64,000 bases of DNA, from assembly GCA_000002435.2 (NCBI GenBank), contig CM018790.1; one strand, 5' to 3'. This DNA comes from Giardia intestinalis. Its lineage: Eukaryota. A program made the translations under genes and the position numbers. Below, piece after piece: positions 10,630 through 42,786 of this stretch. How positions within the stretch are numbered: the stretch's first letter is position 1; the number at the start of each line of letters is the position of its first letter. The notes below the pieces were generated by a model, which did not search any database, was not told the origin of the DNA, and worked only from the letters and a program-made list of their open reading frames with translations.

Positions 10630-10713
10630 GGCCTTTATCAGTTTTGCCTTTTTTTCACCGAGGTTTTGCAACCATTGGCGGAAAATCTGTACTTTTTAGA
10701 TATTACATGTGCA

Positions 10714-11145: not shown

Positions 11146-11169
11146 TCCAAAATTCTCAAAATCAGACTC

Positions 11170-16026: not shown

Positions 16027-16049
16027 GGTGACAACCATTTACATTTGAG

Positions 16050-18239: not shown

Positions 18240-18386
18240 TTAGAAGGAAGGCAAAAGTTAGCAGACTTTATTAAAAGTTGTCTATGTGCTCAATAAAATA
18301 TTAGCTCACGGCTACGGAGGGATTGTTGAAAAACTTCGCAGCCCTTAGCAGTATACCAAAGCTTTATTAAATTGTTCGTTGAGCAG

Positions 18387-19496
18387 ATGCCTCTTCTGTC
18401 TGTCAATAGTTGGTTTGGAACCAAGTCTCCCTTCTTCACTCAGAATATGCGGCACTGCGTGCCTAACCCAGGGGTTATCCTCATAATGTCGCTTTTGTTT
18501 ACCGGATCAATAATTTTCCTAATAATCAGCGCGATAGCTTTTTCGTTCAATTCTGCACAAGCATATGGGATAGCACACTACTCTACACCTTCATCTGGAG
18601 CATCTTCTCAAACAGAGCCAGTGACTGTTACTCTCGAACGATTTAATGTGGAAAAGCCCCTTTACGTATACTACCATCTACAAGACTTCCATCAGAACGT
18701 TCGGTTCTATGTCTCTAGCTTTAGTAGGAAGCAGCTCCAATCAGACAGCTTTAAAGCCGCTGGTCTGAACAAGGACTGCAATAAAGGGGGGACGGTAGTA
18801 GATGAGCCATGCGGCCTTATTTATCAATCCTTATTCAACGATACCTTGGCTAGTACCACAACAAACGAAGTAACCTTTTATATCACCAGCACAGACACCT
18901 CCGCAAATCCGTCTCAACCTATAAAGGTTCAGTTGCCTATTAATACAACGGGGATTGCCTGGAAGGAGGACATCAAGAGCACTAGAATGTATGGAAAGGC
19001 ATTCCAAGCTCTTCCAAATAGTGAAGCTGTTGCAGTATGGATGCGAACAGCACCCCTAAGTACATTTGACAAGCTTTACGGACGGTTCACTGCAGAGCAA
19101 CTCAAGGCCCTCGTCACAGACTCTTACACAGCGGAAACCATATATGATGCTTCGAAGGCTGGCGGTGTAACCGTGGAGTTTTCGGTGACAAATAACTTTC
19201 CATACGGGAAGAAGTCCATTGTGCTGCAGCAAATGACCGTTTTCGGAGGATACTATGAAACAAGGAACTTAGCAATCTTATCTATAATCTTAGGGTGTGT
19301 CATGTTTATCTGCGGACTTACTCTTCTCATCATCTTCCTCGAACGCGGACCGCGGAGTGCCAAGTATAAGACAGTCTTAGAACAGTATCCTATAGTTACC
19401 AATAGCAGCATTCTCCTGTCTGAGCTCGAAAGGATGGGGGACGAGAAGGTCCGCAGAACCATACGCCAGGTAAAGGCCGAAATGGGACTCAAGTGA
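18387..19496 (+). CDS. CDC50/LEM3 (TMEM30) family protein, beta-subunit of P4-ATPase lipid flippases
   Basis: The ORF-track start at 18372 is TTG and the first ATG is at 18387 (MPLLSV...). N-terminal TM (ILIMSLLFTGSIIFLIISAIAF). Family motif PLYVYYHLQDFHQNVRFYVSS (PxYVYYxLxNFYQNHRRYV in other members). C-terminal TM (LAILSIILGCVMFICGLTLLIIFL). Confidence 0.8.
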   Translation: MPLLSVNSWFGTKSPFFTQNMRHCVPNPGVILIMSLLFTGSIIFLIISAIAFSFNSAQAYGIAHYSTPSSGASSQTEPVTVTLERFNVEKPLYVYYHLQDFHQNVRFYVSSFSRKQLQSDSFKAAGLNKDCNKGGTVVDEPCGLIYQSLFNDTLASTTTNEVTFYITSTDTSANPSQPIKVQLPINTTGIAWKEDIKSTRMYGKAFQALPNSEAVAVWMRTAPLSTFDKLYGRFTAEQLKALVTDSYTAETIYDASKAGGVTVEFSVTNNFPYGKKSIVLQQMTVFGGYYETRNLAILSIILGCVMFICGLTLLIIFLERGPRSAKYKTVLEQYPIVTNSSILLSELERMGDEKVRRTIRQVKAEMGLK

Positions 19497-19525
19497 CTCT
19501 AGAGGTAAACAAAACGCAGTGTGGT

Positions 19526-21220
19526 TCACACGCTTTTTCCATCGCAACTGAAGATGTCATCAACGCGCAGGATCATACAAGCATTTTCTATAGCGGCCTT
19601 GAGGACCTGCAGCTTTGTGCTCAGTGGGTCCCAGATGCCCTGCTCCTTGCAGTTGACGAGGAGCCCTGTGACCCCATCGACACCCAGCTGACAGTTCGGG
19701 TCACTGGTGTGGGCAGCCTTGAGCTCGGTGATGGTCCTTATTATATTCCCACCGCAGTTCTGCAGCAGCGTCCGTGGGATCACCTCCAGGGATTTGGCGA
19801 CTGCCTTAATGACAAGCTGAGGCTTTCCGACAAGGGTGTCTGCATACTGAGAGAGTGCCGTCGACAAGTGAGCCTCAAAACAGCCTCCGCCAATGACCAG
19901 GCGCGGGTCAAGGATAATATTCCTGCACACGTGCATGGCGTCCTGAATGTTCCGCTCTATCTCCAGCAGGGTGCTCTTGGAGGCGCCTCGAAGCACAATG
20001 GTACAGGCACTGGCCTTACCCCCAGATTGGTGGATGAAGGAAAAGAACTCGTCACCGATCTTCTGGAGCTCATAGAGGCCTGCGTATGTCCCCACATCAC
20101 TTTCTTGAAGCTCCTCCACGCGACTGACAATGGTGGCACCGGAAACTGCCGCAAGGCGCACGTTGTCTGTCTTCCTGACGCGCCTGAGGACTGTCACGCC
20201 GTGCTGGACAAACATATGAGTCGCCTGATCCGCCACACCCTTCTCGGTGATGACCAGGTCGGGCTTGAAGCTGAGGATCTTCTCCACGTGGGTCCTAATG
20301 TAGTCTTCTTCGACCTTGAGTATGTCTCCTAGATCAGACTTCCCTTGGAACAGCTCTACGTTCATCATTGATTGGGCCTTCTTGTACTCTAGAGGGCAAT
20401 CCAGAAGAAGTATGCGGGGATTCTTGATGTACTTCCTCATATCGGGGTGAATGACATCCTTATTAAGCACTACGCCATCGATGACGCAGCAGTCCTCCAC
20501 AGTCGCACCAGGGATCTTCTCTATGCGGCAAAACCTCTTAATATCAATGTCAACTGAAGCACCAAGCTCTGCTTCATCCCCTTTTGAACGCGCATCCTTA
20601 GTGACACCCACTAGACCCTTGCGCACCTCCGCTCCACGTCCTCTAGCGACTATGCTGACCGCCTCGAGCGCAAGGTTGCACATGAGATCCATCCATCTAC
20701 TGACAAACTTCGTGGATAGCGAGTTCTTTAAAACTGTCATAATAGGGCCTGCCGCCTCAGACTTCAGACCCAGGATCTCTATGCCCTTTATATTTATTTC
20801 AAATGAAGATCTTTCTGCCTCACTCAAAAGAAAGTCCAAGGCTTTCTGGTATCCCTGCGTAATGAGAATAGGATGTATCCCACACTTGAGAAGGGGCTCT
20901 GCCATGGCGATCACCTCCCCTGCCAGGATGACAACGCTTGTGGTGCCGTCTCCGACTTGCTCCTCCTGGGCCCGTGAAACCTCCAGCATGGCCTTGGCTG
21001 CGGGGTGTGCCACGTCGAGCTCGCGCAGGATGGCGTTCCCGTCGTTTGTCATGACCACGCTCCCCATTGAGTCCAGGATCATCTTGAGCATGGAGCGTGG
21101 GCCCATCGTTGTCCTGATGACGTCTGCGACTGTCTTACTTGCCTTGATGTTGTTCATGCGGGCCATTTCTCGGCGCTCGCTCTCGGTGCCTTGGCTCAGG
21201 ACATAGACTTGGGGCTGCAT
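19526..21220 (-). CDS. CCT3: T-complex protein 1 (CCT/TRiC) subunit gamma
   Basis: 564 aa. [35 protein letters not shown] aligns with human CCT3 [35 protein letters not shown]. Other matches: [58 protein letters not shown], and the C-terminal ILRVDDIFS. Confidence 0.9.
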   Translation of the reverse strand: [564 protein letters not shown]

Positions 21221-21299
21221 TTTTTATTAAGGCAGTTTTTTGCCACTCTGTTTACTCTGCTCAGGCAGGCTGACGCAATAGTGCACTGGTATTCATGTT

Positions 21300-22700
21300 A
21301 TGGGGATCTCACATAGACGGGAACGAGAGCCCTCTGCTGTCCTTCTTCTTGGGCCCGGCATATGAGGATGTGAGTCTGCTCATTAAAAAATAGAAACAAT
21401 ATTGCTGTAGTTTTGTCTCTTGGCGATGTCGAGGACCGTGGTACCAGGTGGAAAGCATCGATCTTTGCAGGTAGTTCTCATATCCCTCTCCCTTTCCATA
21501 AGTAGCTTGGCACACTCTGTTTTGTAATGATACACTGCCTTCATAAGAATGGTCTAGCCAGTGGTACTCTGGATGCCAGCTTTTTTGTCCATCAATAGCT
21601 TAACACATTCTGAGTGATTATTATGCGCTGCATACATGAGCGCAGTTTGGCCATGTCAATTTTTCATGCCACCTTCGTGCTTTATTAGCAATGTAACCAC
21701 TTCTGTGTGCCCATGCACCGCTGCTAACATCAACGCTGTCTCTTCGTATCCATTCCATCCACTTATGTCAAAATACTTCGCTGTCTTTCCCTTTCGGATA
21801 GAAATAAAACGATTCACAGCCTCCATATCCCGCATTCTACAGCCTGCATGAGCCTGGTGACGCCTTTATTATCTGTCGGATCAAGGAGCTCCACAATATC
21901 TGTGTGCTTCACTAACAAAGCAAGCATCATCGTGGTTTTACCATTGCTATTCACCCCATATTTACCAGACAAATACTCCAATGCAGTGCTCTTGGAAGCA
22001 GCGCTTGTGAGCAGAGTATATGAGAAATCCTGTATAGCTGACTCCTAAAATCCTTTCTAGAGTCATTTATCTCTCCTGATTTGAGGCTAAGGCTGTTCTC
22101 AAGAGGCTCGATCTCCGATTAGCATTGTCTAGAGCAGCCTCTAGTGCCGTGACTCAAGCCCGTAGTCTTCCTTTTAGAACACCAGATTCTTGAAGCAGCC
22201 TACCAAGCTCCCTGGCTGTTGGTCTTTGAGTGGGGTCTAGAACAAGCGCTTTCTTGAGGATACTCCTTATGAGGTCGTCTTCAACTGCACTCAGGCTGAG
22301 CCTTTGCCCATCAACGAAGACATTCCTCGGGTGCTGCTCCCAGGAGATTAGGCATTTGAAAGTGAAGAGCTCATAGGCGGTAGCACCGAAGACCCGACGT
22401 CGAACGTAGGGCCGGTCTCGTCCCTGAGGTGGATCTCGGGAGCCATGTATGCTTGGTTCCCAAAATGGCACTCCCATTGTGCAGGACATCCTTGCAGAGC
22501 CCGAAGTCCGCAAGAGCTGAGCCTGCCATTTCTGCTGACATCGACTTTGTCGGGGTCGTGAAGGTAGGTAAGGATGATGGCGATCTGCTCCATGATGGAG
22601 AGCACTGTATCGGTAGGGTTACCGGTTCTTGCTCAATCGGCAATCACATCTTGAGGCACCGATCTCAGCGGTCCATGATGATGAAGATGGAGTGAGCGTC
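21300..22700 (-). pseudogene. Decayed NEK-kinase/ankyrin-repeat gene (kinase part at 22150-22700, ankyrin part at 21300-22050), with several frameshifts and stops
   Basis: Minus-strand fragments in different frames: kinase C-lobe pieces (NQAYMAPEIHLRDE; RRVFGATAYELFTFK; NVFVDGQRL..AVEDDLIRSILKKALVLDPTQRPTARELGRLL) and ankyrin pieces (GKTTMMLALLVKHTDIVELL; GYEETALMLAAVHGHTEVVTLLIKHEGGM; GQTALMYAAHNNHSECVKLLMDKKAGIQ). In-frame stops separate the pieces. Confidence 0.55.
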
Positions 22701-23046
22701 TCTGAGCACCCGGTAGTGCCTAATGACATCTAGGTGTGAGCGTCTGGAAATGGTGGCCAGCGCGACCCAGTGGCCTCCGTGAGCTTCCCACTCTGAGTCT
22801 TGGATAGCCACCTATCACATGGACAGTACCAAAGCTGCCCACATCAAGCACCCCTCCTCGCATCGATGCAGCTCGTCGGCGGGCACAGGATATCGAGTGC
22901 ACCGTCCCCAGCCATGACGGTGTCAACGGCGCTGTGCAGAGCACGCTCGGGGGCAGGGAAGCGGCCACCCCTGCTCCCGGTTGCTGGCTGGCTGGCGAAG
23001 TACATAAGGCGCACCCGCTTGTCGGCAGCTGCACCACTAGTGACGC

Positions 23047-23053
23047 GTTTACT
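23047..23053 (-). terminator. Giardia polyadenylation signal AGTAAAC (AGTRAAY class), 13 nt past the VSP stop codon
   Basis: Minus-strand sequence after the stop reads TAG ATGTACTTAGGT AGTAAAC GCG. Seen directly; position is +/-1. Confidence 0.6.
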
Positions 23054-23065
23054 ACCTAAGTACAT

Positions 23066-24277
23066 CTACGCCTTGCCCCTGCAGATGAACCACCAGCAGA
23101 GGAAGCCCACGAGGCCCCCGACGACAACGATGACAGCGACGGAGATCCCCGCGATGGCGCCGGTAGAAAGGCCGCTCTTGTTCGTGCTACCGCCATCTTT
23201 CATGAGGTAGCAGAGAACGGGGCCTTGATTATTAGATGGGGGAGCGCAGCTCGCGCAGTTAGCGACGCCCTGAATGTTATTGCTTGTCTCTGTACACAGC
23301 TTGCATGCTTTACTGGCGTCCAAGTAACGGCCAGGTGGACAGGCGCTGCACTTATTGGGCTGATTAGCTTCGGTGCATGTCGCACAAGTGGAGTCGCATA
23401 ATGGACACATGTTCGAGACAGCTGTCAAGCCATTCGCACACGTTTGGCATTTTCCATCCCCAGTGGGCGTTGTGCAGATGCTCTTCCCGGGGAGCCTCGT
23501 CGTCTGGTAGCACCCGCCCTCCTGGATGAAGTATCCGGCGGCGCAGACCGTGCAGGCACCGTTAGCGGCAGTGGTGCAGAACCGAGTCCTGGCCGCATTG
23601 CTTGTGCAGACGCCATTGAGCGGCACGTTGTTCCCCTTGCACTTCGAGCAGTACTTGGTACCTCCAATTGTTAGGCCGCACGTCTCGCACTCCGGGCCCT
23701 CCACGCATTGCTCCACGCACGTGCCGTCTGTAGGATTGCTCTCGTCGGCGTACCTCAGCATCTTCCCGGCGGGACAGGCCGTGCACTTGGAAGCGCCGGC
23801 CCCGCTGCACTCCGCACAGGAGGGGTCGCAGGGCGCGCACGTTTGTCCGGATAGATACGTTCCGACAGGGCAGGCATCTAAGCATGCCTTCTTCGTCGGG
23901 GTCAGATGCTTTCCTGGTTCACATTCTTCGCAAGTCTGCTTGTCCGGGGAGCACGTCTGGCAGTTCACGATCGGGCAGTCGGCCTGCGGCGTGCACTGCG
24001 TCCCGTCGTCGTTGGGGTCGAAGCCAGGGCTACACGTCTCGCACCTTGTGTTGTCGCCAGAGACGCACTGGGCGCAGTTCTGGACTCCGCAGTCGGACGC
24101 GGGGTTCTTGGTGCACTTCTTCGTGGTGGGGTTGAGGGTGTAGCCTGAGCCGCACGTCTTGCACTGCTGGGGGTTGCTTTCCTCGCAGACATCACAGCCC
24201 TCGACCTCGCACGGCGCGGTCTTTTCGTTGTGCTTTGCCAGCACGGTTGCACAAACTAGGAGAAATCCTACCAACAT
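23066..24277 (-). CDS. Variant-specific surface protein (VSP)
   Basis: The ORF track extends to 24334 but begins with GTG. The first ATG (codon 20, at 24277) gives the signal peptide MLVGFLLVCATVLA. About 12% Cys with many CXXC motifs (CDVCEE, CAQC, CQTC, CAEC, CETC, CATC), a GGC/TM region and the invariant tail ...GLVGFLCWWFICRGKA*. Confidence 0.9.
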   Translation of the reverse strand: MLVGFLLVCATVLAKHNEKTAPCEVEGCDVCEESNPQQCKTCGSGYTLNPTTKKCTKNPASDCGVQNCAQCVSGDNTRCETCSPGFDPNDDGTQCTPQADCPIVNCQTCSPDKQTCEECEPGKHLTPTKKACLDACPVGTYLSGQTCAPCDPSCAECSGAGASKCTACPAGKMLRYADESNPTDGTCVEQCVEGPECETCGLTIGGTKYCSKCKGNNVPLNGVCTSNAARTRFCTTAANGACTVCAAGYFIQEGGCYQTTRLPGKSICTTPTGDGKCQTCANGLTAVSNMCPLCDSTCATCTEANQPNKCSACPPGRYLDASKACKLCTETSNNIQGVANCASCAPPSNNQGPVLCYLMKDGGSTNKSGLSTGAIAGISVAVIVVVGGLVGFLCWWFICRGKA

Positions 24278-24862
24278 TAGCCGGAGTTCGTATGCCACTG
24301 CTCTTCTGTCAGGCCGGTGCGTTGCCGCGAGCACTGAGAGACAGCCGCTCTTGCTCTCTTGATCGGTTGGACTGGAGAGGGATAAGATAATAGCACACCC
24401 ACCGGAGGCCGGCTGATGGCACGGTTCCCCCTGGCTTCGATAGGAACAGGACCAGTGAGGAGTAGACTCAGACCGTGCCTCTCTTGTGGAATGATTGATT
24501 GGGGTGCACTCTTGTACATTGCTGTCACTGTATCACTGGGCCCACCTGCAGGTGCGCTCAGAGGCCTCACGGGTAAGCTGCGCCCACTTCTCGACCGTCC
24601 GGAGACGATGGCTGGTTGTGGATAACATACTAAAAGCTCCTCTCCATCGATGCATCCAGAGCTCAGTGTCGTCCCGGTCGGCATACTCTGTCGGGGCACT
24701 CCGCGTCGGCCTCCAGGGTTCGGCCTGCTCAGGGCCATACGAGCCGCTAATGTGCCCTCCTTGGCCTGCCATCAGCAGCTCGCACTAGGCGCCTTACTCA
24801 GGCAGTAGCCAAGGCCACTCCAAAGGGTGGCTCCGGATTGCAGTTAAAATCAGCGGCGGCTG

Positions 24863-27030
24863 TTGACTCCACTCCCTATCCCAGCTGCCGCAGAGGGTGT
24901 CCTGGGAGACGCTAGTAACAGTGCAGTTAGCGGCTTTGCAGGGCCGATGGGCGTTTGGGGAGCGTGCTCAGAAGGGGCCTTCAGTGTTATCTACTCTCTC
25001 AGGGGATGCCCCCACCTCATTGTGAAGGAGATCCGGCTCGACGGTCTGGGTCAGCACGGTGTGGATGCTAAAGCGTGGGCTGACCGCTCTTTTTATCCTC
25101 TTTCACCCGGGGGTCCTCAAGTACCATCAAGTGATTGAAGACGAGGGCCTTATCTATGTCGTCACGGACCGGCACAGCAGGACTCTTGACAACTTCCTCA
25201 CCGAGCACAAGCGAAGGAAGATCCCCGTGTCTGCCGGCGTGATCCTCTCCGTCATGAAGCAGGTCGCCGCCGCCCTCGCCTACCTTCACAGCGTCAGTGG
25301 GGCAAACACTAAAGGCCTCGTCCACTGTGACCTCAGGCCTGCCAGCATTCTTATCAGCGCAGACGGAGAGCGCTTCATCATCGCCGACTTCGGCCTCTGC
25401 AAGGACGCCCTGTGGAGTGAGAGCACTCTCATAGGAATAATGGCGTACATGGCCCCCGAGGCGCTCCTCCGTAATGAGGCCAGCCCCGCCTCCGACGTAT
25501 GGAGCCTCGGGGTCATCATTTATGAACTAGTAACTCTGAGGAGACCGGACTTCTTGGGGGGCAAGGAGCCGGCAGAGGTCTTCGTCGACGGGTGGAGGCC
25601 GGACCTGAGCGGTGTCGCTGATGGCTTCATAAAGAGTGTTCTGGAGAGGATATTCGTGCTGGAGCCAGAGAGGAGGCCGACGGCCAGGGAGCTGCACGAG
25701 ACGTTCGCTACATTCGACATCCCAGTTGGTGAGCTGAGGGCTCAATACGCGGTGCTGAAGTACGAATGCGGCTCCTTGGAGGCTGCGCTGAATGGCGCTA
25801 ACGCCAGGATCGCGCTGCTGGAAGAGGATGTTAAGACTAAATCCACTAAGATCGACGCACTCGAAGACCAAGGTAAGGAACATCTAGCCATGATTAAGGC
25901 ACTGGAGAGTAGGCTTGCACAGTTCAGTGACAGGATGAACACGGCTGACCCTCAGTCCAGCCTCCTTTTGCTGCCCAGGCTGATGCGTGCCGCGCATACG
26001 AACGGCATGGAGACCGTCCGGATGCTGCTTGAAGAAAGACTCGGTGTTGGTCAGCGCGACGCACAGGGGCACGTTGATCCCGTCGAGTTGTTTGTTGGGG
26101 AGGAGAGGGGCCTCCAGGACAAGAACGGCTGGACTACCTGATGATCGCCACAGAGGAGGGCTATGCAAGAACTGCCTCCCTTCTGGTCCCATATGAGAAG
26201 GACTGGATCGACAGCGAAGGCAAGACGGCCTTGGTGATTGCGGCAGAGGCAGGACATGAAACTGTGGTGGAGGCCATCGACCCAACCGATGAGAACGGCG
26301 TCACGGCGCTCATGCGGGCTGTTAATAGAAATGATGTGGGGGCTGTAAAAGCACTCTTACCCATCCAGAGGGGGAGGAAAACATACAAAGAGGTCACAAT
26401 AAGCGGATGGTACATGGGCAAAGGAACAGCTCTGATGGTGGCTGCGGCAAGTGGACACGCAGAACTAGTAGAACTGCTAGCAGAGCACGAAAAGGGGAGA
26501 AAGTAGGCGGTTGGGCCGCTCCCGTATTCGCGGCACTGTGCAATCGTTCCAATGACCCCCTGGTGGACTATATTGGGCACGTTGAGCTTTTGATGGAGTA
26601 TGAGAGCAGTATCTCAGGGTGGACGGAGCTCATGTATGCAGCAGCACGAGGGCACGAAGGAATCGTAGAGCTGCTCAAGCAGGAGACTGGCATAAGGAAC
26701 AACGAGCATCAGACTGCCCTCATGTGGGCAGCACGCAATGATCATCCAGAGTGCGTCAGGCTCCTACTGAAGGACGAAGGCGGCATGCAAACGACCAAGG
26801 GCTGGACCGCTCTTATAAACGCAGCATATAGCAACGCCGTGGAATGTGCAAGACTTCTTAAGGAAAACGAGAAGGAGCTGAAGACAATTTCTAGCTGCCA
26901 TGATCACTCGCCCGGTACCACTGTCCTCAGTATCGCTAAGAAGAAGGATCGCAAAGAGATAGTAGGCATCCTCCCAAACGAGATCTGCTCTTCTTTATCG
27001 AGGTCGGCTTGCCAGCTCCTGTCCGAGTAA
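24863..27030 (+). pseudogene. NEK kinase with C-terminal ankyrin repeats, disrupted by at least 3 frameshifts (reading frames 2, 0, 2, 1)
   Basis: Four consecutive plus ORFs together rebuild one NEK/ankyrin protein: 24863..25138 (GAFSVIYSL..HLIVKEIRLDGL, kinase subdomains I-II), 25059..26141 (HPGVLKYHQVIEDEGLIYVVTD..HCDLRPASILI..IADFGLCK..MAYMAPE..DVWSLGVIIYELVT.., ending ..KNGWTT*), 26141..26506 (TALVIAAEAGHETVV..GVTALMRAVNRNDVGAVKAL..GTALMVAAASGHAELVELL) and 26407..27030 (WTELMYAAARGHEGIVELL..HQTALMWAARNDHPECVRLL..GWTALINAAYSNAVECARLL). At 26141 the sequence tggactacctgatgatcgcc reads W T T stop stop. The paralog pattern GWTALMIAA predicts a 1-nt loss near there. Confidence 0.65.
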
Positions 27031-27049
27031 ACCCGTCCAGGATCCGAAG

Positions 27050-29950
27050 CTTAGATGCCGCCCACTCTGGAGAAGAGCCTTGTGCATCCCGCCTGGAAGC
27101 CGTTGGGTGCTCCACTATGCATTCCGGAGCGTCTCTCCTCTCTGACTGGCTTGGGTCAACCATCGTCTGACATCTAGTGAGCACCCGCTGTCTCGGGCCT
27201 TGCGTCAGTCGTGGCGATCCAGTCTCGAGAGCAGTTAACTCTGGCCATGTACTCTGGAGTAGCTTTGTGGCCCTGGTGCTCTACGACGAGGATCGCACGC
27301 CACGACCCCGGGTGTCGACTCCCGTTCCTCGGGGTGCCTCTTCATCTTCTCGTGGAGGGCACCATCTGTTCCATTATCAAGGATGCGCTCCCCGTGTGCC
27401 TCTATCCTGGAGTCATAGTACGCATTCGTGGATGCCGATGGAGTACTCTTATACGTTGTGTCGGGGGAGAGGCCCACCCCTCTGCTCATGGATCGCAGTG
27501 CGCTCTTGCAGGTGGTCCGTCACCCAGCACGAGACCGTGTCGACGCTCACCCTGTGCAGTGCGTCTGGCTCAGTGACCTGTGGGCTGGTCCATCTGCACT
27601 GCACAACACACTTGGGGGGAATGATTCGGTCTGTCGAGGCGTCGTCCAAAGCATCACGAGCGATCAAGACCGGTTCGCCGTTAGGCCGTCTTTCTCTACA
27701 CCGGCACCCGTCTACTCGAGGGTGTCAGGTACTGCCAGCTGCTGTAGTAGACACCCAGCAGGTGGCCCAGACCACTACTCCTCGGTGCGGACAGGATCAG
27801 TCCGCCTCTGCCAACCAGACACCCCAGGAGCCCCATCTCTTGTCGAGGGACTCACATAGGCCACGTGTGGGTCCATCTCGACCAGCGGGGCGAGTGATTA
27901 GTGCCATCACTGGCTTCAGGTTCTCTGCTGCCTTGAGGGGTCCTTCGAGACCAGCCAGGAAGAAGGCCTCCTGCTCCTCTGTGCTCCTACACCCAGTGCT
28001 GACCGTCGAGCCATGCTGCTTCCCAGGCCTGTCGCCTCTGTGACTATCCTCGCCGCGTCACTGTTGTCGGCATGGGCACTGAGTGGGGTATCTCCTCAGC
28101 TCCCGATGAGCAGGTTCTGTCCCGCGCAGTGTGAAGGCATACTCAGGGCCCCGAGGGACCGAATCCAGGGGTGCAGCGTGTCGCAGCTGAAGGAAGGCCT
28201 CGACGCAGCTCCTCGGGACTACCTTGTGGAGCGAATCATGATCGTCCATTGATTGTGGTCGCCCTGTCTCATTCTTGAGGAAGGACCAGGCGGAACCGTA
28301 CAGAGCACGCATCCCATCCTATGGATCGCGCTGAGGATCTCGTTGAAGGCCTGCACCCGGATGGACTCGCCAGCGCAGACCCGGGGACTTCGAGCCCCGT
28401 GGACTGGCCGTCCGTGCTCTCCGATGGCTGAGGGGCTCGTGTCCCTCAGGGGCCAGGCCGTCCTGATCCGGCCCCTCTGGATAGCAAGGTTCTGGTCGTC
28501 GGTGGCGCTGTCAGGGTGCAGCTCCCCCTCGAGGCGAGGCAGAGGCTGCAGGCCGGGCAGTGGGGTGGTGACTGTTGCTCCTCTGCTTCCCCGCTGTGTG
28601 GGGAGGCACGTCTCCTCGGCTCTCGACTGGAGCTCTGCGGGGTGTTAGGTACCCTCCCCTGAGCACGTTCGCACGACGGGCGCTGAGGGGGATTTCCTTC
28701 TCTATCCCCGCTGCCCCACTCAGCAGCGCCCTGCATCCGGTGTCTGTGCTGCATGCGTCTGGACGGCCTCACCGCGGAGGGTTTTCGCGCAGGACAGGCA
28801 CGTGCTCTTCCGTTCCTACTAGTTCAACGTTCGCCTGGTGCCACTACAGCGTAGGGCGCCCCTCTCCATCAGGTTCCTAAGATCCTCGTTCTCGCTGTGA
28901 TACCTGATCTCTCCCCCGTGAGGGGTGGGGTCCACGGTGCACTGGTGTGTGTCCGGGACGATGCCCCCTCATGGAGCTCTGCAGGTTCCAGGACCCTCTG
29001 GGGACAGCCAGCAACTGGGACCCCTGCTGTGAGCTAGGTTGAACTAGCTCCACCGGGCCACGAGCAGCTTCATGGCACTCTGGTGTTGCTGGTCTCTCAA
29101 CCGCACATGCTTGGCCTGTCCTAGCAGATAGTGGGGTCGTGCCTGAGTACTTTCGAGGAGTCTGGGAAGCGCTCCGGTCCGATGCTTTCTATCCAGAGCA
29201 TCGCGACGGGCAACGGTGAGGGCCCGCGTGGGACACCGCACTTGGGCACCAAGGCTCGGTGTGCGTGAGCTGGCACCGTCTGTCGGTCGAAAAGCTGCAG
29301 AAGGAGCAGCAAGAGGAGCCCAAAGCGGGAGAGGGTTCTCCAGACGTGCTGCTCGAGACCCTTTAGAAGTCGAAAGAGACATGGCAGGAGACGCAGAAGT
29401 GGTCGAGTGGCTCTTCGTGCTGTGGATCGCGTAGGAGGTCCCCGAGGGCGCAGTCTCTTAGTGAACCTGGCGTTCTTGAGCCAGTTCATGTAGTCAGCGA
29501 GTGACCCCTTCAGGGCTAGGTGGTCTCCTAGAGAAACGGTCATTGAGGGCCTGCCACCATGCGCCGCTCTCCATGATAGGGAGATTCAGCGGAGAGAGGT
29601 GTGGGGCCCCTTACTCATTCTATCGGATGCTTTCCAGACTCCATTCTTCGAGCCCCTGAGAACCTTCCTCGGCAGCTCGCTCGTGGGAGCGGTTGCCGGT
29701 CTGCTGCTTGCTGAGGGCTGGGCGTCGGGGCTATCAGCTTTCCGTTTGGGCTTCTTCTCCCGCCGGAACTGGATGGCACTAGATTCCTGGACCCTAGGTT
29801 CGAATGTCGAACAGATGAGTGAGAGAAGACCTGCCTGGTGTGGCGACTCGCACGGAATTTGCTCGGACAGATTGTCTAGAGGTTCCCCAATGGAGTTAAA
29901 TATCTCATAGATTGATGATTTTAGAGACAACAAAGGTGGCAAATTTCAGA
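27050..29950. other. GC-rich interval of about 2.9 kb (hand counts roughly 62-72% GC) without a convincing single coding frame; nature unknown
   Basis: Overlapping 60-290 aa ORFs occur in all six frames, as expected when AT-rich stop codons are depleted. None shows a family motif. Counts I made by hand: 43/60 GC at 28381-28440 and 37/60 at 27481-27540. I found no rRNA signature sequences. Confidence 0.3.
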
Positions 29951-30023
29951 GATGAGTGGATTACGCCGGGTGGTTTACTCAAGCTGCAGCTACCAAGATT
30001 CTAGTTAAAGCTCCTACCTTAAG

Positions 30024-33000
30024 TTACGTGGTAGTTTGCATCCAAATGAGCCTAGCAACCCGAATGGCGTCGCGTGTCGACCTTAGTGGGGCATTGAGTA
30101 ACGAACCTAAATGATTTGCAACCTCGAAGCGCTTGGATTCTAAAAACGAATAGGCCACAGGATCTGCACCAACACCGTATCGAAGCCGGCCAATTGCTGC
30201 TACAATCAATGCGCAGCAGTGGACTATTTTTGTGTTTGCCTCCTTGAGTAGCCTCATGGATTTCTCTAGAAGCACTAGGATGCCCTCTTGATCTAGCTGG
30301 CGGGATGTGACCCGTTGCTCTAGGATTGCTCCGCAAAGAGTGCTAGTAGGCAGATCCTCGAGGAGCTCATTTAAAGAGATAGCTTCAGATATAGTTTGAT
30401 AGGCGTACGTGGTGTTCGTCTCTTGGAGCATCAGTATAGCAGCGTAAAAGGCGGATCTATCTATACACTTTAAAGCTTTCAAGACCGAGGACAGAAAGGA
30501 GTGAAGTAAGCCTATGTCCTGCGAGGCTTGTAGCACAAAGTGCGTTAGTGCGGAGACGATACAAGGCCCATGTGCTCCCAGAGAGGTTATTGTCCCGAGT
30601 AGTCTATTCACGGCATTTATAAATATAGGCATTTCCTCTGGCGAGCACCATTTGAGAGAGTTCATTGCAATAAGCGTACAGTACTGTGCATCGAAGTCAG
30701 TGGTAGCTAACTGTGCACAAATCTTGATGTACTCAGTACGATTGTGGTGAGATAGATATTGTGCAATAAATAAGGCATCTGGAAGTTTATACTTTAAGCC
30801 CTTTTCTATAAGTGCGCAGGCCTCTGGGTGAGAATCAAAGGCGTATAAATGCAGACGTATTGATAAGTGGAGGCAGTACGCTATTACTTGTGCTTGTAAA
30901 TAACTATCTACGGACTTCTCAAGTCTATTGATTCCCTCCGCTAGACTAGCCACTGCTCCCCCAGCTGACGCTCCATCGATGACTTCTCTAACAAGTGTCT
31001 GGAAGTATTCATTATTTAACAGATCCTCAACTAAATCTAAAACTGGCTTATTTTGTGTCAGTATGGATGTGATGAGCAGGCCTTCAAAATCTTTGATGAT
31101 GCTTGCTCTAATATTCTGTCCGTTAAGAGTTGATAAGGCAAAAGGAAGAGGCAAACCCTCATTCAATTGTATCGTCCTTAGAATGTGTAGATCAACACTG
31201 GCCATTATCGAGCAAAGACGATGCCTGACTGTATCTGGTGTTCCAGCCGTATAATTAACTAGACCAAATAATAGAGACGCCTTCAAACCAGCCATGACTT
31301 CCTCTGGCACATGTGATTGGCAAAATGATATTATGTGCTCCCAACTAGGATGGGTAACAGGAAGGTCCAGCCCCACAGAGCTAAGAGCGTAATAGTATCG
31401 CAGTATGCAAAGCAGATCATCAAGGGCCTCCGGTGCTAGAGACGATACAGTATCTATGTACATTTGTATGGTTTCTAGAAGCTGAGAGGATAGGAGAGGA
31501 TCGCTGATTAGGTGACAGTTGCTGAACGATATGGCAAGGACGTGTGTTCTCAGTCCAAATCTGACCCAGTGCTTCTTGGTTGCTTCGCTAAAGAGCATCA
31601 TAAACTTACATGTTTGCAGAGCGTGTCCCTCTGCGAGTACCATGCATTCGTTGAGAATTTCAATAAAGAGAGACCCCTCAATTACATCGCCAGCGGCAAG
31701 GTGTTCTACTAACAAGTTGAAAAATGTCGTTGAAAAGGCTTCCTTCCCCTGGTCAAGCCTACAGTATGTGCATAAGAGCTTGCAGTTGCTAGAAAAGATC
31801 TTCATGTTCTCGGTAGACCCCATAGAGATCTCCCGCTTTATTGTATCTTCCAGGTGCGCAGAAAACGTGCTTGCAACTTCTGTGTCGTAGTGAGAGAGCA
31901 TTAGCAGAAGAGACTCCTTGGCGGGACGGTCTGCCGAAGGAAACTGATCATAAATGAGCTCATTTGTAATTTGATAGAAGAGGTCATCTGCGTATCCAGC
32001 AGGAGTCAGGCTGACGGCAAGCTTGTTGGTAAATAAGTCAGTGAGCAATTGGCTGAACGTGGCGCTCTCCTGCAGCTTATTGAGTTGTTCAGCACTAAGG
32101 TGCATGTTGGAGAACTCAGGTAAGCGCATTCGTGAATGAATGACATTATACGTCTTTTCTGCAAGTAGCGTAAACATAGCTTGGAGAGATGGCAGGTTGT
32201 GCCCAAGTGCTTCGGGAAGTGTTTCTCGAAAGAGCTTTTCAAAGAAGTTAGAGAGGCTAAGGAAAACTGCACTTAATGACACTGATGGTTTGGCATCCTT
32301 GTTAGCAGAGTTGAGAATGGCGGTAAGAACCGCAGGTACGGCACTGATGCTGGAGTGTACTCTAGCGTCGGCAGTAAGAGAAGCTTCAAGTGTCAAAAAG
32401 AGCTGTCTACGCTCCTCTTCAGTGTCTGTCTCCAGAACACGCTCTGCGATCATCTGATACAAGCGCTCAGAGCCACTGGGATGAATTAGTGCTGAAAGTA
32501 GGGCCGCACGTAGTTCATCGGCTGTTAAATTGTCATCTGGATCTGGCGAATACTCTAGTGGAATGTACTCAATGAGAAACTCAAAGACATTTTCATCTGC
32601 ATCATCGTGAAGCTGAGACAAGGTCTCTTCACTGATAGAGAAACTGTAGTGGTGGAGTGATAGCCCGCATACCTCGTTCAGAGTGGGGCAGAGACACTCG
32701 TTGATGAGTAAAATAGCGAAGTGCAAGTACTCAATGAGTGTTCGCAGAATGGCAACAAGCTTTGCTACTAGGAAGATTATCGCCCCGCTTCGTTCTCCAC
32801 GAAAAGCTAAGGTCAGCGTTTTCAGTAATTCAGTGCCTGCCTTATAGCCATCGACAAGATCTACTACCGTTTTAGACGTGCCACTCGATCTGGAAGATGA
32901 TAGCTCTCCTCTCGTTTCCAGCCAATCAAGGAGCAGGGTGCATATGTTCTTCTTAGCCAAAACTTTTGAGTACGTGATGCGTGGACTAAGCTTGAGAAGT

Positions 33001-33419
33001 TTGTTCATGTATCTCCGCATAAGAGATACTTCAGCAAAAGACTGGTCGCTCAAAAAAGCCTCACGAGCTAGAGGAAGAAGATGCTCTGCCACAGCTCCTG
33101 CTTCTAAGAGTGACGAGCACCGAGATATACTAAACTCTGCTAGGGCTGTCTGGATTTCTGCATCCAGCAAGGGCTTACTTTTGGAAATTGCTAGACTGAC
33201 CAGTTCGACAATACGGCATGACTGTGCATCCTTATAGTTCTTCCCAGTGTTCTCTGCGATCTTAATGAAGGCAAGAAGGCATTCTTTTGTGGCGAACGAT
33301 ACCTGCGAACGAATGTCATCCAGCGCCTCCTCGGATGAGATGAGGTTTGTGTAGCTTGTGATCAACCGCTTGAGATCTTCATCGATATCAGGAGGGACAG
33401 CAGAGCCCCTAGCAGTCAT
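30024..33419 (-). CDS. Large hypothetical protein (1131 aa), probably all-helical, leucine-rich and repeat-like (ARM/HEAT-like, unproven)
   Basis: Long ATG-start ORF. Composition and periodicity suggest solenoid helices. No catalytic motif and no family I could name. Confidence 0.7.
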   Translation of the reverse strand: MTARGSAVPPDIDEDLKRLITSYTNLISSEEALDDIRSQVSFATKECLLAFIKIAENTGKNYKDAQSCRIVELVSLAISKSKPLLDAEIQTALAEFSISRCSSLLEAGAVAEHLLPLAREAFLSDQSFAEVSLMRRYMNKLLKLSPRITYSKVLAKKNICTLLLDWLETRGELSSSRSSGTSKTVVDLVDGYKAGTELLKTLTLAFRGERSGAIIFLVAKLVAILRTLIEYLHFAILLINECLCPTLNEVCGLSLHHYSFSISEETLSQLHDDADENVFEFLIEYIPLEYSPDPDDNLTADELRAALLSALIHPSGSERLYQMIAERVLETDTEEERRQLFLTLEASLTADARVHSSISAVPAVLTAILNSANKDAKPSVSLSAVFLSLSNFFEKLFRETLPEALGHNLPSLQAMFTLLAEKTYNVIHSRMRLPEFSNMHLSAEQLNKLQESATFSQLLTDLFTNKLAVSLTPAGYADDLFYQITNELIYDQFPSADRPAKESLLLMLSHYDTEVASTFSAHLEDTIKREISMGSTENMKIFSSNCKLLCTYCRLDQGKEAFSTTFFNLLVEHLAAGDVIEGSLFIEILNECMVLAEGHALQTCKFMMLFSEATKKHWVRFGLRTHVLAISFSNCHLISDPLLSSQLLETIQMYIDTVSSLAPEALDDLLCILRYYYALSSVGLDLPVTHPSWEHIISFCQSHVPEEVMAGLKASLLFGLVNYTAGTPDTVRHRLCSIMASVDLHILRTIQLNEGLPLPFALSTLNGQNIRASIIKDFEGLLITSILTQNKPVLDLVEDLLNNEYFQTLVREVIDGASAGGAVASLAEGINRLEKSVDSYLQAQVIAYCLHLSIRLHLYAFDSHPEACALIEKGLKYKLPDALFIAQYLSHHNRTEYIKICAQLATTDFDAQYCTLIAMNSLKWCSPEEMPIFINAVNRLLGTITSLGAHGPCIVSALTHFVLQASQDIGLLHSFLSSVLKALKCIDRSAFYAAILMLQETNTTYAYQTISEAISLNELLEDLPTSTLCGAILEQRVTSRQLDQEGILVLLEKSMRLLKEANTKIVHCCALIVAAIGRLRYGVGADPVAYSFLESKRFEVANHLGSLLNAPLRSTRDAIRVARLIWMQTTT

Positions 33420-33437
33420 TGGAATTTAACGATTTTT
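33420..33437. promoter_or_regulatory. 18-nt AT-rich divergent intergenic region (tggaatttaacgattttt) between the start codons of the 1131-aa gene (minus) and the RS-rich gene (plus); probably a minimal bidirectional initiator
   Basis: The CAT at 33417-33419 and the ATG at 33438 were read directly. The 18 nt between them are 13/18 A+T. Giardia promoters are short AT-rich elements directly upstream of the ATG. Confidence 0.4.
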
Positions 33438-34283
33438 ATGGGCTTGCTTGGTCCACAAATGCCAACTTCTTTTCGACTGGGCACACTTTGCGAAGACTTC
33501 ACCTCTGTCTCGCAGACCGCCCCTAAAATACTAAATTTAGTTCTAATGCCTCAGACCCCAGAGCTCATAATAGAAGAAATTGACATAGAGCGAGAGTACA
33601 AAGACGAGATAACGTCACTGCAGTCTGCCCTTGACCTGGAACGACGCACAAACGCACGTCTACTACAACGCATCGCAGAGCTCGAAAACGAGCTTCTGAT
33701 GGCCCGGTTGCCAAAGGCATGTGAGCAGTGCAAGATTTACTGTCAACTCCTTGATGAGCTACAGAAGAAGTCTGAGCGGCGCGACCAGGAGCTTGCTGCA
33801 GAGGCCTCGCAGCATCCAGTTCCAAGCGGGCCTGCACGCGCAGTGTACAGTGCTATTCAGCCGCTCCCAGCTCACGCAATAACATGCGAAGAGATAGAGC
33901 CACTTCTCTTGACTCTTAGCAAGCAAAGCCCTCGCAACCAGATACACGGATCAGGCGGCACTCCTCGTCGGCAAACCCCTAGAAACAGGCGCTCTCCACG
34001 GTCTCGGTCGGGATCAGCCACCAGGACCAGAACACCAAAGTCCCGATCAGGGTCTACAAAGATTGGGCCTCGAAGCGGTAGCACTCAAGGAGGTTCGGAG
34101 CAAAATAAAAGCAAGCGGTCACCAGGCAACAAAAGAAGCTCACAGGGAATGCGGAGCGCCAAAATAGTTTCGCAGATACCAGATCACCCCTCAGGAAAGA
34201 AACGCAGCACCTCCAAGCCTTCCAACCCACGCAACTCCCAATCCAGCGTAGCAGGAGCACGGCCGGTTAGATTTGGATTCTAG
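33438..34283 (+). CDS. Hypothetical protein with an N-terminal coiled-coil and a C-terminal Arg/Ser-rich (RS-like) basic tail
   Basis: 281 aa. Residues 40-120 are heptad-like (EITSLQSALDLERRTNARLLQRIAELENELLMARL). The tail reads RRQTPRNRRSPRSRSGSATRTRTPKSRSGS... Confidence 0.6.
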   Translation: MGLLGPQMPTSFRLGTLCEDFTSVSQTAPKILNLVLMPQTPELIIEEIDIEREYKDEITSLQSALDLERRTNARLLQRIAELENELLMARLPKACEQCKIYCQLLDELQKKSERRDQELAAEASQHPVPSGPARAVYSAIQPLPAHAITCEEIEPLLLTLSKQSPRNQIHGSGGTPRRQTPRNRRSPRSRSGSATRTRTPKSRSGSTKIGPRSGSTQGGSEQNKSKRSPGNKRSSQGMRSAKIVSQIPDHPSGKKRSTSKPSNPRNSQSSVAGARPVRFGF

Positions 34284-34309
34284 CTGCATGAAAGCTCGCC
34301 GTGCACTGC

Positions 34310-35428: not shown

Positions 35429-35464
35429 CAATAAATTTTAGCGGAAATTTAGTAGCGCAGCCTT

Positions 35465-35983: not shown

Positions 35984-36074
35984 AGAGAAGACTTCGTTTA
36001 CAAGGCATTTAGTTGGACAGAAAGTAGCCAGCGACGATGGTTGGATCGGCTCAGCGCATCAGACGGGGATTAGA

Positions 36075-36650: not shown

Positions 36651-36667
36651 ACTTTTTAAAAGTCTAA
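36651..36667. promoter_or_regulatory. 17-nt AT-rich divergent spacer (actttttaaaagtctaa) between the SAR1 start (minus) and the 1801-aa gene start (plus); a minimal bidirectional promoter
   Basis: Both start codons were read directly (CAT ending at 36650, ATG at 36668). The spacer is 13/17 A+T. Confidence 0.4.
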
Positions 36668-42073: not shown

Positions 42074-42081
42074 ATCTGTTT

Positions 42082-42765: not shown

Positions 42766-42786
42766 ATCTATTAGTGAGAGTGAATC

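What the first reader, a model, noticed from the sequence alone, without database searches (positions are those of the whole stretch)
21300..27030. VSP gene bracketed by two inverted, mutually paralogous NEK-kinase/ankyrin pseudogenes
The intact VSP (23066..24277, minus) lies between two decayed NEK/ankyrin genes that face opposite ways: minus strand at 21300-22700 and plus strand at 24863-27030. The two pseudogenes are recognisably related at protein level (RNVFVDGQRL..AVEDDLIRSILKKALVLDPTQRPTARELGRLL versus AEVFVDGWRPDLSGVADGFIKSVLERIFVLEPERRPTARELHETF), so they descend from one duplicated gene. An inverted repeat flanking a surface-antigen gene is what an inversion, duplication or gene-conversion cassette would leave behind. 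Giardia switches VSP expression and expands VSP repertoires, but the recombination substrates are poorly defined. This layout could mark a VSP-mobilising rearrangement hotspot.
Basis: partly seen in the sequence, partly recalled or inferred. Interest (0 to 1): 0.7.

Follow-up and report, generated by a model that had tools for sequence, protein, structure and literature searches.

The report
VSP island with two unrelated NEK pseudogenes
An intact Giardia surface-antigen (VSP) gene does sit between two dead NEK-kinase/ankyrin genes facing opposite ways, but the two are unrelated members of a roughly 500-gene family, not a repeat pair, and the instability at this locus maps to the VSP gene itself, a pattern already described for Giardia.

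Summary
The window is Giardia intestinalis WB, on the 1.54-Mb chromosome. The layout is real. It holds an intact VSP (23066-24277, minus; KAE8302411.1), a badly decayed NEK/ankyrin pseudogene L (about 22860 to 21383, minus) and a younger pseudogene R (24863-27030, plus).

The claimed kinship is not real. Over 231 shared kinase columns in 116 family members, L and R are 37% identical, below the family median of 48%. R ranks 51st of 115 for L, and L ranks 102nd of 115 for R. They are never sisters in 100 bootstraps. At DNA level they share 596 nt at 70% and a longest exact match of 15 nt, the same as L against an unlinked NEK gene. They are not a recombination substrate.

The locus is nonetheless unstable. 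Against isolate DH (assemblage A2), identity drops from 98-99% to about 85% across a GC-rich 6-kb island (23.2-29.25 kb). The VSP body is replaced upstream of its conserved 3' end. The adjacent 24-gene block appears inverted. R is a mosaic with a paralogue elsewhere, which indicates gene conversion.

All of this matches published descriptions of VSP-associated, gene-poor, high-variation regions at synteny breaks. Interest is low.

The parts
19526..21220 (-). TCP-1/CCT chaperonin gamma subunit. This conserved core gene marks the left edge of the island.
   Evidence: Identical to KAE8302410.1/XP_001708669.1. Pfam Cpn60_TCP1. 98-100% identical to DH.
21383..22860 (-). Left NEK-kinase/ankyrin pseudogene (L). 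It is old and heavily decayed, and no protein accession falls between its two neighbours.
   Evidence: At least 7 frame changes and about 6 in-frame stops. The stitched product hits Pkinase and Ank_2. The best relatives are only 33-53% identical. Present in DH at 89-97% nt identity, where the stitched L translation likewise maps in several frames with in-frame stops. Accession numbers of CCT-gamma and the VSP are consecutive.
23044..23224 (-). Conserved VSP 3' end (last 53 codons, stop and poly(A) signal). This is where WB-DH orthology ends, so it is the inferred recombination breakpoint.
   Evidence: WB-DH identity is 86-92% up to 23224 and about 50% beyond it. An unrelated DH VSP also matches 23044-23182 at 84%. 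A third haplotype (L019) matches to 23188 and then diverges.
23066..24277 (-). Intact, single-copy VSP gene (403 aa).
   Evidence: PF03302 at E=1.2e-119. Equals KAE8302411.1 and forms a singleton 90% cluster. Has CXXC x18, GGCY, CRGKA and AGTAAAC.
24278..24862 (.). Divergent intergenic region between the VSP start and the R start, upstream of the VSP and presumably holding its promoter.
   Evidence: About 89-92% identical to the start of DH contig AHGT01000024.1. That contig also carries the first ~60 nt of this VSP's coding sequence, with the first 45 nt identical.
24863..27030 (+). Right NEK-kinase/ankyrin pseudogene (R). It is younger than L, and its kinase region is a mosaic with a paralogue at another locus.
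   Evidence: Pkinase and Ank in three frames. Lesions were mapped against P0001 and P0005. Collinear with P15 NEK P0005 (769 aa) to the C-terminus. 87.8% nt identity to the DH P0001 gene over 25022-26152. Of 210 informative sites, 110 group WB-R with that paralogue and 48 with the positional DH copy; the sites are clustered, p=0.0035.
28460..28965 (-). Decayed relic of a C2H2-zinc-finger-like hypothetical gene that is intact in P15.
   Evidence: tblastn of the P15 gene (L017 22316-23396, minus) gives 36.5% over 145 aa and 50% over 36 aa, with stops and a frameshift. There is no coding signal otherwise.
23224..29250 (.). GC-rich, gene-poor, hyper-divergent island holding the VSP body, R and the zinc-finger relic.
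   Evidence: GC is 0.593 for 22300-29300 against 0.494 and 0.482 in the flanks. WB-DH identity is about 85% (75-98% per 100 nt) from 24200 to about 29250, then 96-99%. Short-read contigs end at about 22342 and about 29518.
30024..33419 (-). Conserved hypothetical gene GL50803_0017408, the right edge of the island and the first gene of the block that is inverted in DH.
   Evidence: Equals KAE8302412.1, the accession directly after the VSP. Orthologues: DH 99%, P15 88%.

Best explanation
This is an ordinary Giardia 'variable island'. It is a GC-rich, gene-poor stretch of roughly 6-7 kb between two conserved core genes (CCT-gamma and GL50803_0017408). It holds one live VSP gene and three dead genes: two NEK/ankyrin pseudogenes and a zinc-finger-like relic.

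The two NEK pseudogenes are independent members of the very large NEK/ankyrin family and died at different times. L is old and has no close living relative. R is recent and belongs to a subfamily with many intact members. They do not form a functional inverted repeat.

The instability of the locus comes from two other kinds of dispersed homology. (1) The conserved 3' end shared by all VSP genes. Recombination there has exchanged the VSP body between lineages. With a second, oppositely oriented VSP about 60 kb away, it most likely inverted the intervening 24-gene block between assemblages A1 and A2. (2) Close NEK paralogues elsewhere in the genome, which have gene-converted patches of R.

Shown: the anatomy, the lack of L-R kinship, the divergence profile, the position of the orthology break, the mosaic in R, and the opposite gene order in the two annotated assemblies. 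Inferred: that the exchange was homologous recombination in the VSP 3' ends, that the partner is a VSP next to GL50803_0017401, and that GC-biased conversion explains the GC excess.
For: Organism and locus.

L and R are unrelated beyond the family level. R ranks 19th (full length), 16th (kinase C-lobe) and 49th (ankyrin part) among L's blastp hits. Over 231 shared kinase columns and 116 sequences, L-R is 37.2% against a family median of 48.5%; the reciprocal ranks are 51/115 and 102/115. In NJ bootstraps L and R are sisters in 0 of 100, R's sister is P0016 in 84 of 100, and the smallest clade holding both contains 96 of 116 leaves. At DNA level L-R shares 596 nt at 70% with a longest exact match of 15 nt. 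L against an unlinked NEK gene gives 456 nt at 70.6%. R against that same gene gives 1762 nt at 82% with a longest exact match of 39 nt.

Different ages: lesion counts.

Instability. WB-DH identity is 98-100% in CCT-gamma, 89-97% in L, 86% in the VSP 3' end, about 50% in the VSP body and about 85% from 24200 to 29250. DH has a different 603-aa VSP joined to the same L/CCT-gamma flank. The DH copy of this VSP's upstream region and first 60 nt sits next to R at the start of the same contig, 59 kb away.

Gene order by sequential accessions. WB: CCT-gamma 410, VSP 411, 17408 = 412 ... 17401 = 435. DH: 17408 orthologue = 594 ... 17401 orthologue = 617, VSP603 = 618, CCT-gamma = 620. Both blocks hold 24 genes. 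The old WB numbering gives the same WB order.

R mosaic. GC.

Literature. VSP, NEK, Protein 21.1 and HCMP genes sit at synteny breaks, and repeated areas hold pseudogenes (PMC3091692). Regions around VSPs are gene-poor with more allelic variation (PMC7000408; PMC4570179). There is recombination in conserved vsp 3' regions (PMC2996952). Inversions are the commonest structural variant and several dozen SVs are VSP-enriched (PMC7048089). Gene-conversion tracts of about 3.3 kb are GC-rich and VSP-enriched (PMC12669663).
Against: The inversion rests on one 454-era DH contig (AHGT01000024.1). A false join through the conserved VSP 3' end cannot be excluded. No independent A2 contig spans the junction: the A2-like short-read contigs stop at about 22342, and VSP603 was found only on the DH contig.

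The predicted partner VSP lies outside the window and was not seen. WB has no VSP at least 90% identical to DH VSP603, so a simple reciprocal exchange needs further divergence afterwards.

L is so decayed that a very old common origin with R's lineage cannot be formally excluded. That origin would predate most of the family's radiation.
Confidence: 0.78

Rival explanations
1. L and R are the two arms of an inverted duplication of one NEK/ankyrin gene. The arms bracket the VSP and act, or acted, as the substrate for inverting, duplicating or converting the VSP cassette.
For: The arms have opposite orientation and both show kinase-plus-ankyrin architecture. tblastx gives about 46% identity in collinear blocks. 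The locus is variable between isolates.
Against: L-R similarity is below the family median. R has at least 50 closer relatives from L's point of view, and L at least 100 from R's. Bootstrap support for a sister relationship is 0 of 100. DNA similarity equals that between L and an unlinked NEK gene, with a longest exact match of 15 nt. The WB-DH break lies in the VSP 3' end, while L stays attached to CCT-gamma and R to GL50803_0017408 in both isolates. The VSP is single-copy.
Confidence: 0.04
2. Nothing has rearranged. The WB-DH differences are assembly artefacts: a chimeric DH contig joined through the conserved VSP 3' end, with paralogous sequence collapsed into the island. The locus would then be a static stretch of VSP plus pseudogenes.
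For: DH is a fragmented 454 assembly. All short-read assemblies break inside this island. VSP 3' ends of unrelated genes are about 84% identical. PCR verified only 59-70% of predicted synteny breaks in comparable draft assemblies (PMC3091692).
Against: The DH contig runs without a break from unique 98.5%-identical sequence into the 85% island on the R side, and from CCT-gamma and L into VSP603 on the other side. VSP603 is one continuous ORF. A third, independent haplotype (ENA contig L019) also diverges from WB and from DH at 23188. P15 has a different content at this position. The mosaic in R is patchy, not a clean paralogue swap.
Confidence: 0.13
3. The island is a deep allelic or introgressed haplotype. 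An old polymorphism would be kept between A1 and A2, possibly because the inversion suppresses recombination. Ectopic recombination would not be involved.
For: There is a sharp switch from 98.5% to about 85% identity at about 29250. A third haplotype exists. Higher allelic heterozygosity around VSPs has been reported (PMC7000408, PMC4570179).
Against: Only about 5 kb next to the breakpoint is divergent, while the rest of the fetched part of the inverted block (window 29250-43419) is 98.5% identical. In the kinase region WB-R is up to 97% identical to a DH gene at another locus, in patches where the positional DH copy is 72-78%. That points to ectopic exchange rather than simple allelic divergence.
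Confidence: 0.05

Closest known systems
VSP/NEK/ankyrin-rich non-syntenic regions of Giardia genomes (Jerlstrom-Hultqvist et al. 2010, PMC3091692; Xu et al. 2020, PMC7000408)
   Same: A VSP sits together with NEK/ankyrin family members and pseudogenes in a gene-poor stretch. Synteny and sequence identity break down there between isolates, and allelic or assembly variation is elevated.
   Different: Nothing essential differs. Here the NEK members are unannotated pseudogenes, and the breakpoint can be placed within about 180 nt at the VSP 3' end.
Inverted VSP gene pairs, head-to-head or tail-to-tail (Adam et al. 2010, PMC2996952; Xu et al. 2020, Table 2)
   Same: Inverted arrangement involving a VSP locus. 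One published head-to-head pair (117472/117473) has a NEK kinase between the two VSPs.
   Different: In those pairs the repeated arms are the VSPs themselves. Fourteen of the 19 pairs in Adam et al. are identical ORFs, and they lie 2-12 kb apart. Here the flanking elements are NEK relics about 37% identical in the kinase domain, and the VSP is single-copy.
Structural variants (mostly inversions) enriched for VSPs (Pollo et al. 2020, PMC7048089), and GC-rich, VSP-enriched gene-conversion tracts (PMC12669663)
   Same: There is an apparent ~60-kb inversion with a VSP at the visible breakpoint. The island is about 6 kb with GC 0.59 and shows mosaic similarity to a paralogue. The published conversion tracts have a median of 3.3 kb and GC 0.54, against 0.49 for the genome.
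   Different: Those studies are genome-wide statistics. This is a single locus where the breakpoint and the mosaic can be read directly. The mosaic seen here is in a NEK pseudogene, not in the VSP.

Membership tests
Giardia variant-specific surface protein (VSP) | Match to the VSP family profile | tested here: met
   PF03302 at E=1.2e-119, 400 bits against a 31.4 cut-off. Identical to the annotated VSP KAE8302411.1.
Giardia variant-specific surface protein (VSP) | N-terminal signal peptide, CXXC-rich ectodomain, GGCY, C-terminal TM segment ending in CRGKA, and a poly(A) signal just after the stop | tested here: met
   MLVGFLLVCATVLA start, 18 CXXC, 1 GGCY...GFLCWWFICRGKA*, and AGTAAAC 15 nt after the stop. 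The signal peptide was judged by eye, not by a predictor.
Giardia NEK kinase (kinase domain plus ankyrin repeats) | Protein kinase domain followed by ankyrin repeats | tested here: met
   R: Pkinase 2e-28 and Ank_2 in adjoining frames. L, stitched: Pkinase 41 bits (cut-off 31.7) and Ank_2 3e-31. The best database hits for both are Giardia 'Kinase, NEK' proteins.
Pseudogene | Reading frame disrupted, and the disruption reproducible in independent sequence data | tested here: met
   Frameshifts and stops were mapped against intact homologues. Short-read contigs from different runs are 99.98-100% identical over 21383-22342. The DH copies of both are also disrupted. No protein accession lies between the neighbouring genes.
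Inverted repeat / inverted segmental duplication flanking a cassette | The two arms are each other's closest relatives | tested here: not met
   Reciprocal ranks are 51/115 and 102/115. Sisters in 0 of 100 bootstraps. R's nearest relatives are 70-79% identical in the kinase domain, against 37% for L.
Inverted repeat / inverted segmental duplication flanking a cassette | Extended nucleotide identity able to support homologous recombination | tested here: not met
   596 nt in 7 patches at a mean of 70%, with a longest exact match of 15 nt. This equals L against an unlinked NEK gene.
Inverted repeat / inverted segmental duplication flanking a cassette | Rearrangement breakpoints between isolates fall in the arms | tested here: not met
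   The WB-DH break lies at 23044-23224, in the VSP 3' end. L and R each stay with their outer flanking gene.
VSP-associated structural variant (inversion between oppositely oriented VSPs) | Opposite order or orientation of the intervening block in two isolates | tested here: met
   Alignments of DH contig AHGT01000024.1 and sequential accession numbers in both annotations, 24 genes each. The caveat is that there is only one DH assembly.
VSP-associated structural variant (inversion between oppositely oriented VSPs) | A VSP at both breakpoints, in inverted orientation | not testable with these tools
   The near breakpoint is in the window's VSP. The far one, next to GL50803_0017401 about 60 kb to the right, lies outside the window. 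In DH the gene at that position is VSP603.

The most novel reading that the evidence does not exclude
The conserved ~160-nt 3' end shared by VSP genes acts as a dispersed recombination site. Here a crossover between this VSP and an oppositely oriented VSP about 60 kb away would have flipped a 24-gene block between sub-assemblages A1 and A2 and re-partnered the VSP bodies with new flanks. GC-biased ectopic conversion of the neighbouring NEK relic would then help produce an island about ten times more divergent than the genome average. If confirmed with long reads, this would be a base-pair-resolved example of how VSP repertoires and chromosome structure co-evolve. The NEK pseudogenes would be bystanders.
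Probability: 0.5. Interest if true: 0.4.

Novelty: already known. Interest (0 to 1): 0.22.

Why it matters
It matters mainly as a correction. Two family members flanking a gene in a genome with about 490 NEK/ankyrin genes should not be read as an inverted repeat without a family-wide baseline.

The positive result is modest. This locus gives a clean, checkable example of a published generalisation, that VSP genes sit at synteny breaks in gene-poor, variable, GC-rich regions. The orthology break is narrowed to the conserved VSP 3' end, there is an apparent 24-gene inversion between A1 and A2, and a visible gene-conversion mosaic sits in a neighbouring NEK pseudogene. That could guide PCR or long-read tests of VSP-mediated rearrangement. 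It does not open a new question.

Tried and rejected
1. Exact-product look-ups of the VSP (403 and 422 aa versions) and of R's 360-aa ORF found no record in the contig index. Context therefore came through the flanking core genes.

Via its cluster id, only the DH contig itself was found, so the DH junction has no independent confirmation.

3. Two metagenome scans used 32-nt and 44-nt strings conserved between WB and DH at the L/VSP and VSP/R junctions. Both gave 0 hits.

4. tblastx of 27000-30100 against the P15 locus gave hits in all frames with stops. This is nucleotide-level conservation, not a coding gene. Only the zinc-finger-like relic emerged. Pfam found nothing in ORFs 27177-28043 or 24277-24738.

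5. I looked for a repeat to explain why short-read contigs all stop at about 22342. No k-mer of 14 or more is shared with the rest of the window or the fetched loci, so this remains unexplained.

6. I considered P0121, the top-scoring hit for L, as a P15 orthologue of L. I rejected it because it is only 33-44% identical.

7. I considered the P0001 gene (DH contig AHGT01000153.1) as the DH orthologue of R. I rejected it because the positional orthologue is on AHGT01000024.1. The P0001 gene is a paralogue that shares conversion patches with R.

8. The Adam et al. 2013 paper on DH and GS (PMC3879983) is not held.

Full report
IDENTITY OF THE WINDOW. The 564-aa product of 19526-21220 (minus) is identical to TCP-1/CCT gamma of Giardia intestinalis WB (KAE8302410.1 / XP_001708669.1), on a 1,539,535-bp chromosome. 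The window is therefore from the assemblage A1 reference isolate.

CHECK OF THE OBSERVATION. The VSP is real and intact.
- 23066-24277 (minus) hits Pfam PF03302 at E=1.2e-119.
- It carries 18 CXXC motifs, one GGCY and a TM segment ending in CRGKA. It is followed by AGTAAAC.
- It equals the annotated VSP KAE8302411.1 and forms a singleton 90%-identity cluster, so it is single-copy.

The left pseudogene (L) lies on the minus strand from about 22860 to 21383. Guided by intact homologues, its kinase and ankyrin segments are spread over all three frames. There are at least 7 frame changes and about 6 in-frame stops. The stitched translation still passes the Pfam Pkinase cut-off and hits Ank_2 at 3e-31.

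The right pseudogene (R) lies on the plus strand at 24863-27030 and is much less damaged. Compared with intact P0001 and P0005, it has three frameshifts (about 25069-25080, 26135 and 26497), an 11-codon deletion and the loss of one ankyrin repeat.

The lesions are genuine.
- Nine short-read contigs from different runs are 99.98-100% identical to the window over the 3' two-thirds of L.
- The DH isolate carries L at 89-97% nt identity, and the stitched L translation maps there in several frames with in-frame stops. DH also has a frameshifted R.
- No protein accession lies between CCT-gamma (…410), the VSP (…411) and the next gene GL50803_0017408 (…412). Neither relic therefore carries a protein accession.

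L extends about 160 nt further than stated.

ARE L AND R A PAIR? No.
That stretch is a family-wide kinase C-lobe motif, and P0144 (60%) and P0145 (57%) match L better there.
- Among blastp hits of stitched L, R ranks 19th over the full length, 16th for the kinase C-lobe and 49th for the ankyrin part.
- I aligned 116 family members and restricted the alignment to the 231 kinase columns present in both relics. L-R identity is 37.2%, below the family median of 48.5% (5th-95th percentile 30-71%). R is 51st of 115 for L, and L is 102nd of 115 for R.
- R's nearest relatives are 70-79% identical. These are P0001, P0024 and P0016, and they include genes on other WB chromosomes.
- In neighbour-joining bootstraps L and R are sisters in 0 of 100 replicates. 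R pairs with P0016 in 84 of 100. The smallest clade holding both L and R contains 96 of 116 leaves.
- At DNA level L and R share 596 nt in seven patches at 70% identity, with a longest exact match of 15 nt. L against an unlinked NEK gene from DH gives 456 nt at 70.6%. R against that same gene gives 1762 nt at 82% with a 39-nt exact match.

There is therefore no inverted repeat beyond family-level resemblance, and no plausible substrate for homologous recombination between the two relics. WB has 184 NEK and 305 ankyrin-repeat genes (PMC7000408). This window alone has three more ankyrin-family loci. Such a flanking pair is expected now and then by chance; that step is my inference.

WHAT THE LOCUS LOOKS LIKE IN OTHER ISOLATES. 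I recovered orthologous contigs through the flanking core genes.

DH (assemblage A2, contig AHGT01000024.1):
- The left flank is collinear with the window from 9526 to 23224 at 98.2%.
- Identity falls in a gradient towards the VSP. It is 98-100% in CCT-gamma, 89-97% in L, 86% in the last 160 nt of the VSP and about 50% beyond 23224.
- Upstream of that point DH has a different 603-aa VSP. It is 53% identical over 335 aa. It is followed by a 1906-aa gene and an ankyrin gene that have no match in the window.
- The right flank is found at the start of the same DH contig. It is 98.5% identical for window 43419-28873, then about 85% across 28881-24712 (R plus the sequence to its right). It is 89% across the VSP upstream region and the first 60 nt of the VSP coding sequence, where the contig ends. 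A per-100-nt profile puts the return to 96-99% at about 29250.

In DH the two halves of the locus are therefore about 59 kb apart and in opposite relative orientation. Sequential accession numbers tell the same story.
- WB: CCT-gamma 410, VSP 411, 17408 = 412, HMG-CoA reductase 419, PI3K 425, 17405 = 427, 17401 = 435.
- DH: 17408 orthologue 594, reductase 601, PI3K 607, 17405 orthologue 609, 17401 orthologue 617, VSP603 618, CCT-gamma 620.
- Both blocks hold 24 genes. The older WB numbering gives the same WB order.

The simplest reading is an inversion of the 24-gene (~60 kb) block between A1 and A2. The visible breakpoint lies at the conserved VSP 3' end (23044-23224). The other lies beside GL50803_0017401, outside the window.

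Further points:
- A third haplotype (ENA contig L019) follows the window to 23188 and then diverges from both WB and DH.
- P15 (assemblage E) is 86% identical up to about 28884. It then has only weak similarity to 27155-28874, an SLFN/AlbA_2-like gene and a second, inverted copy of that similarity. It has no R, no VSP and no CCT-gamma within 10 kb.

Caveat. The DH arrangement rests on one 454-era contig. I could not obtain an independent A2 contig across the junction.

R IS A MOSAIC. I made a three-way alignment of WB-R, the positional DH copy and the DH paralogue encoding P0001 (contig AHGT01000153.1, where it lies downstream of another VSP).
- WB-R tracks the positional copy outside the kinase domain (88-100% per 100-nt bin).
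- Inside the kinase domain there are patches (25216-25316 and 25516-25716) where WB-R is 91-97% identical to the paralogue but only 73-78% to the positional copy.
- Of 210 informative sites in 25018-26140, 110 group WB-R with the paralogue, 48 with the positional copy and 52 group the two DH sequences. The patterns are clustered, with a longest run of 15 and permutation p=0.0035.

This is the signature of ectopic gene conversion among close NEK paralogues. It explains part of the excess divergence. L takes no part in it.

THE REST OF THE ISLAND. The stretch 27030-30024 has no convincing coding signal. The exception is a decayed relic of a C2H2-like gene at 28460-28965 (minus), which is intact in P15. 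The island (22300-29300) has GC 0.593 against 0.494 and 0.482 in the flanks.

COMPARISON WITH WHAT IS KNOWN. Each element has precedent.
- VSP, NEK, Protein 21.1 and HCMP genes are the families found at synteny breaks. Repeated areas with pseudogenes were proposed as sites of plasticity (PMC3091692).
- Regions around VSPs are gene-poor and show more allelic variation (PMC7000408; PMC4570179).
- Recombination occurs in the conserved 3' part of vsp genes, and inverted VSP pairs exist (PMC2996952).
- Inversions are the commonest structural variant, and several dozen SVs per isolate are VSP-enriched. The authors suggest VSPs may be recombination hotspots (PMC7048089).
- Gene-conversion tracts of about 3.3 kb are GC-rich and VSP-enriched. 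Conserved VSP regions were proposed as the homologous substrate (PMC12669663).

The locus is a member of this known class. It fails every test for 'inverted repeat cassette formed by the two NEK relics'.

VERDICT. The specific interpretation, a paralogous inverted pair acting as a recombination substrate, is refuted. The looser idea of a rearrangement-prone VSP locus is correct but already established, and the responsible homology is in the VSP 3' end and in NEK paralogues elsewhere. Interest is low (0.22). The most novel reading left open is a VSP-3'-end-mediated 60-kb inversion between A1 and A2. It would be a useful worked example rather than a new principle.

Noticed in passing
window 22289-22471 and 29518-29993: Short-read contigs from many independent A1-like and A2-like isolates all end at about 22342, inside L's kinase C-lobe. 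On the other side they end at 29518-29993. No repeat of 14 nt or more explains this within the window or the fetched loci. Allelic heterozygosity, or a 31-mer shared with a paralogue elsewhere, is likely.
   Followed up: partly
window 28460-28965 (minus); L017 14792-17140 and 20408-23370: This is a decayed relic of a C2H2-zinc-finger-like hypothetical gene. In P15 the homologous sequence occurs twice as an inverted repeat. The two copies flank an 837-aa SLFN/AlbA_2-domain gene that is absent from the WB window, and one copy is an intact gene.
   Followed up: partly
proteins P0099 (GS, 923 aa) and P0102 (DH, 1031 aa; contig AHGT01000153.1 = L010): These database proteins are named 'VSP' but carry kinase, ankyrin and VSP Pfam domains. 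They are probably gene models that fuse a VSP with an adjacent NEK gene. They show that VSP-NEK adjacency recurs at other loci.
   Followed up: no
proteins P0017, P0066, P0086, P0097: These NEK kinase/ankyrin proteins in a 'Giardia duodenalis' assembly carry unrelated names: CH-TOG protein, SSU ribosomal protein S8E, ATP-dependent protease subunit and splicing factor 3A subunit 2. These look like annotation-transfer errors.
   Followed up: no
L019 1-87 (ENA ERZ27317378 k141_97172): This is a third haplotype of the CCT-gamma/L flank. It is 93.5% identical to WB and 96.5% to DH over 2.5 kb. It continues into yet another VSP sequence beyond window position 23188, so at least three different VSP bodies are joined to the same flank.
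   Followed up: partly
window 21700-23065 versus L011/L018: WB-DH divergence rises in a gradient towards the VSP, from about 1% in CCT-gamma to 5-11% across L. There is no sharp step, unlike the sharp step at about 29250 on the other side.
   Followed up: partly
window 11170-16026, 34310-35431, 56174-60472: Three further ankyrin-repeat family genes lie in the same 64-kb window (tblastn with R, 24-37% identity). This illustrates how dense the family is.
   Followed up: no
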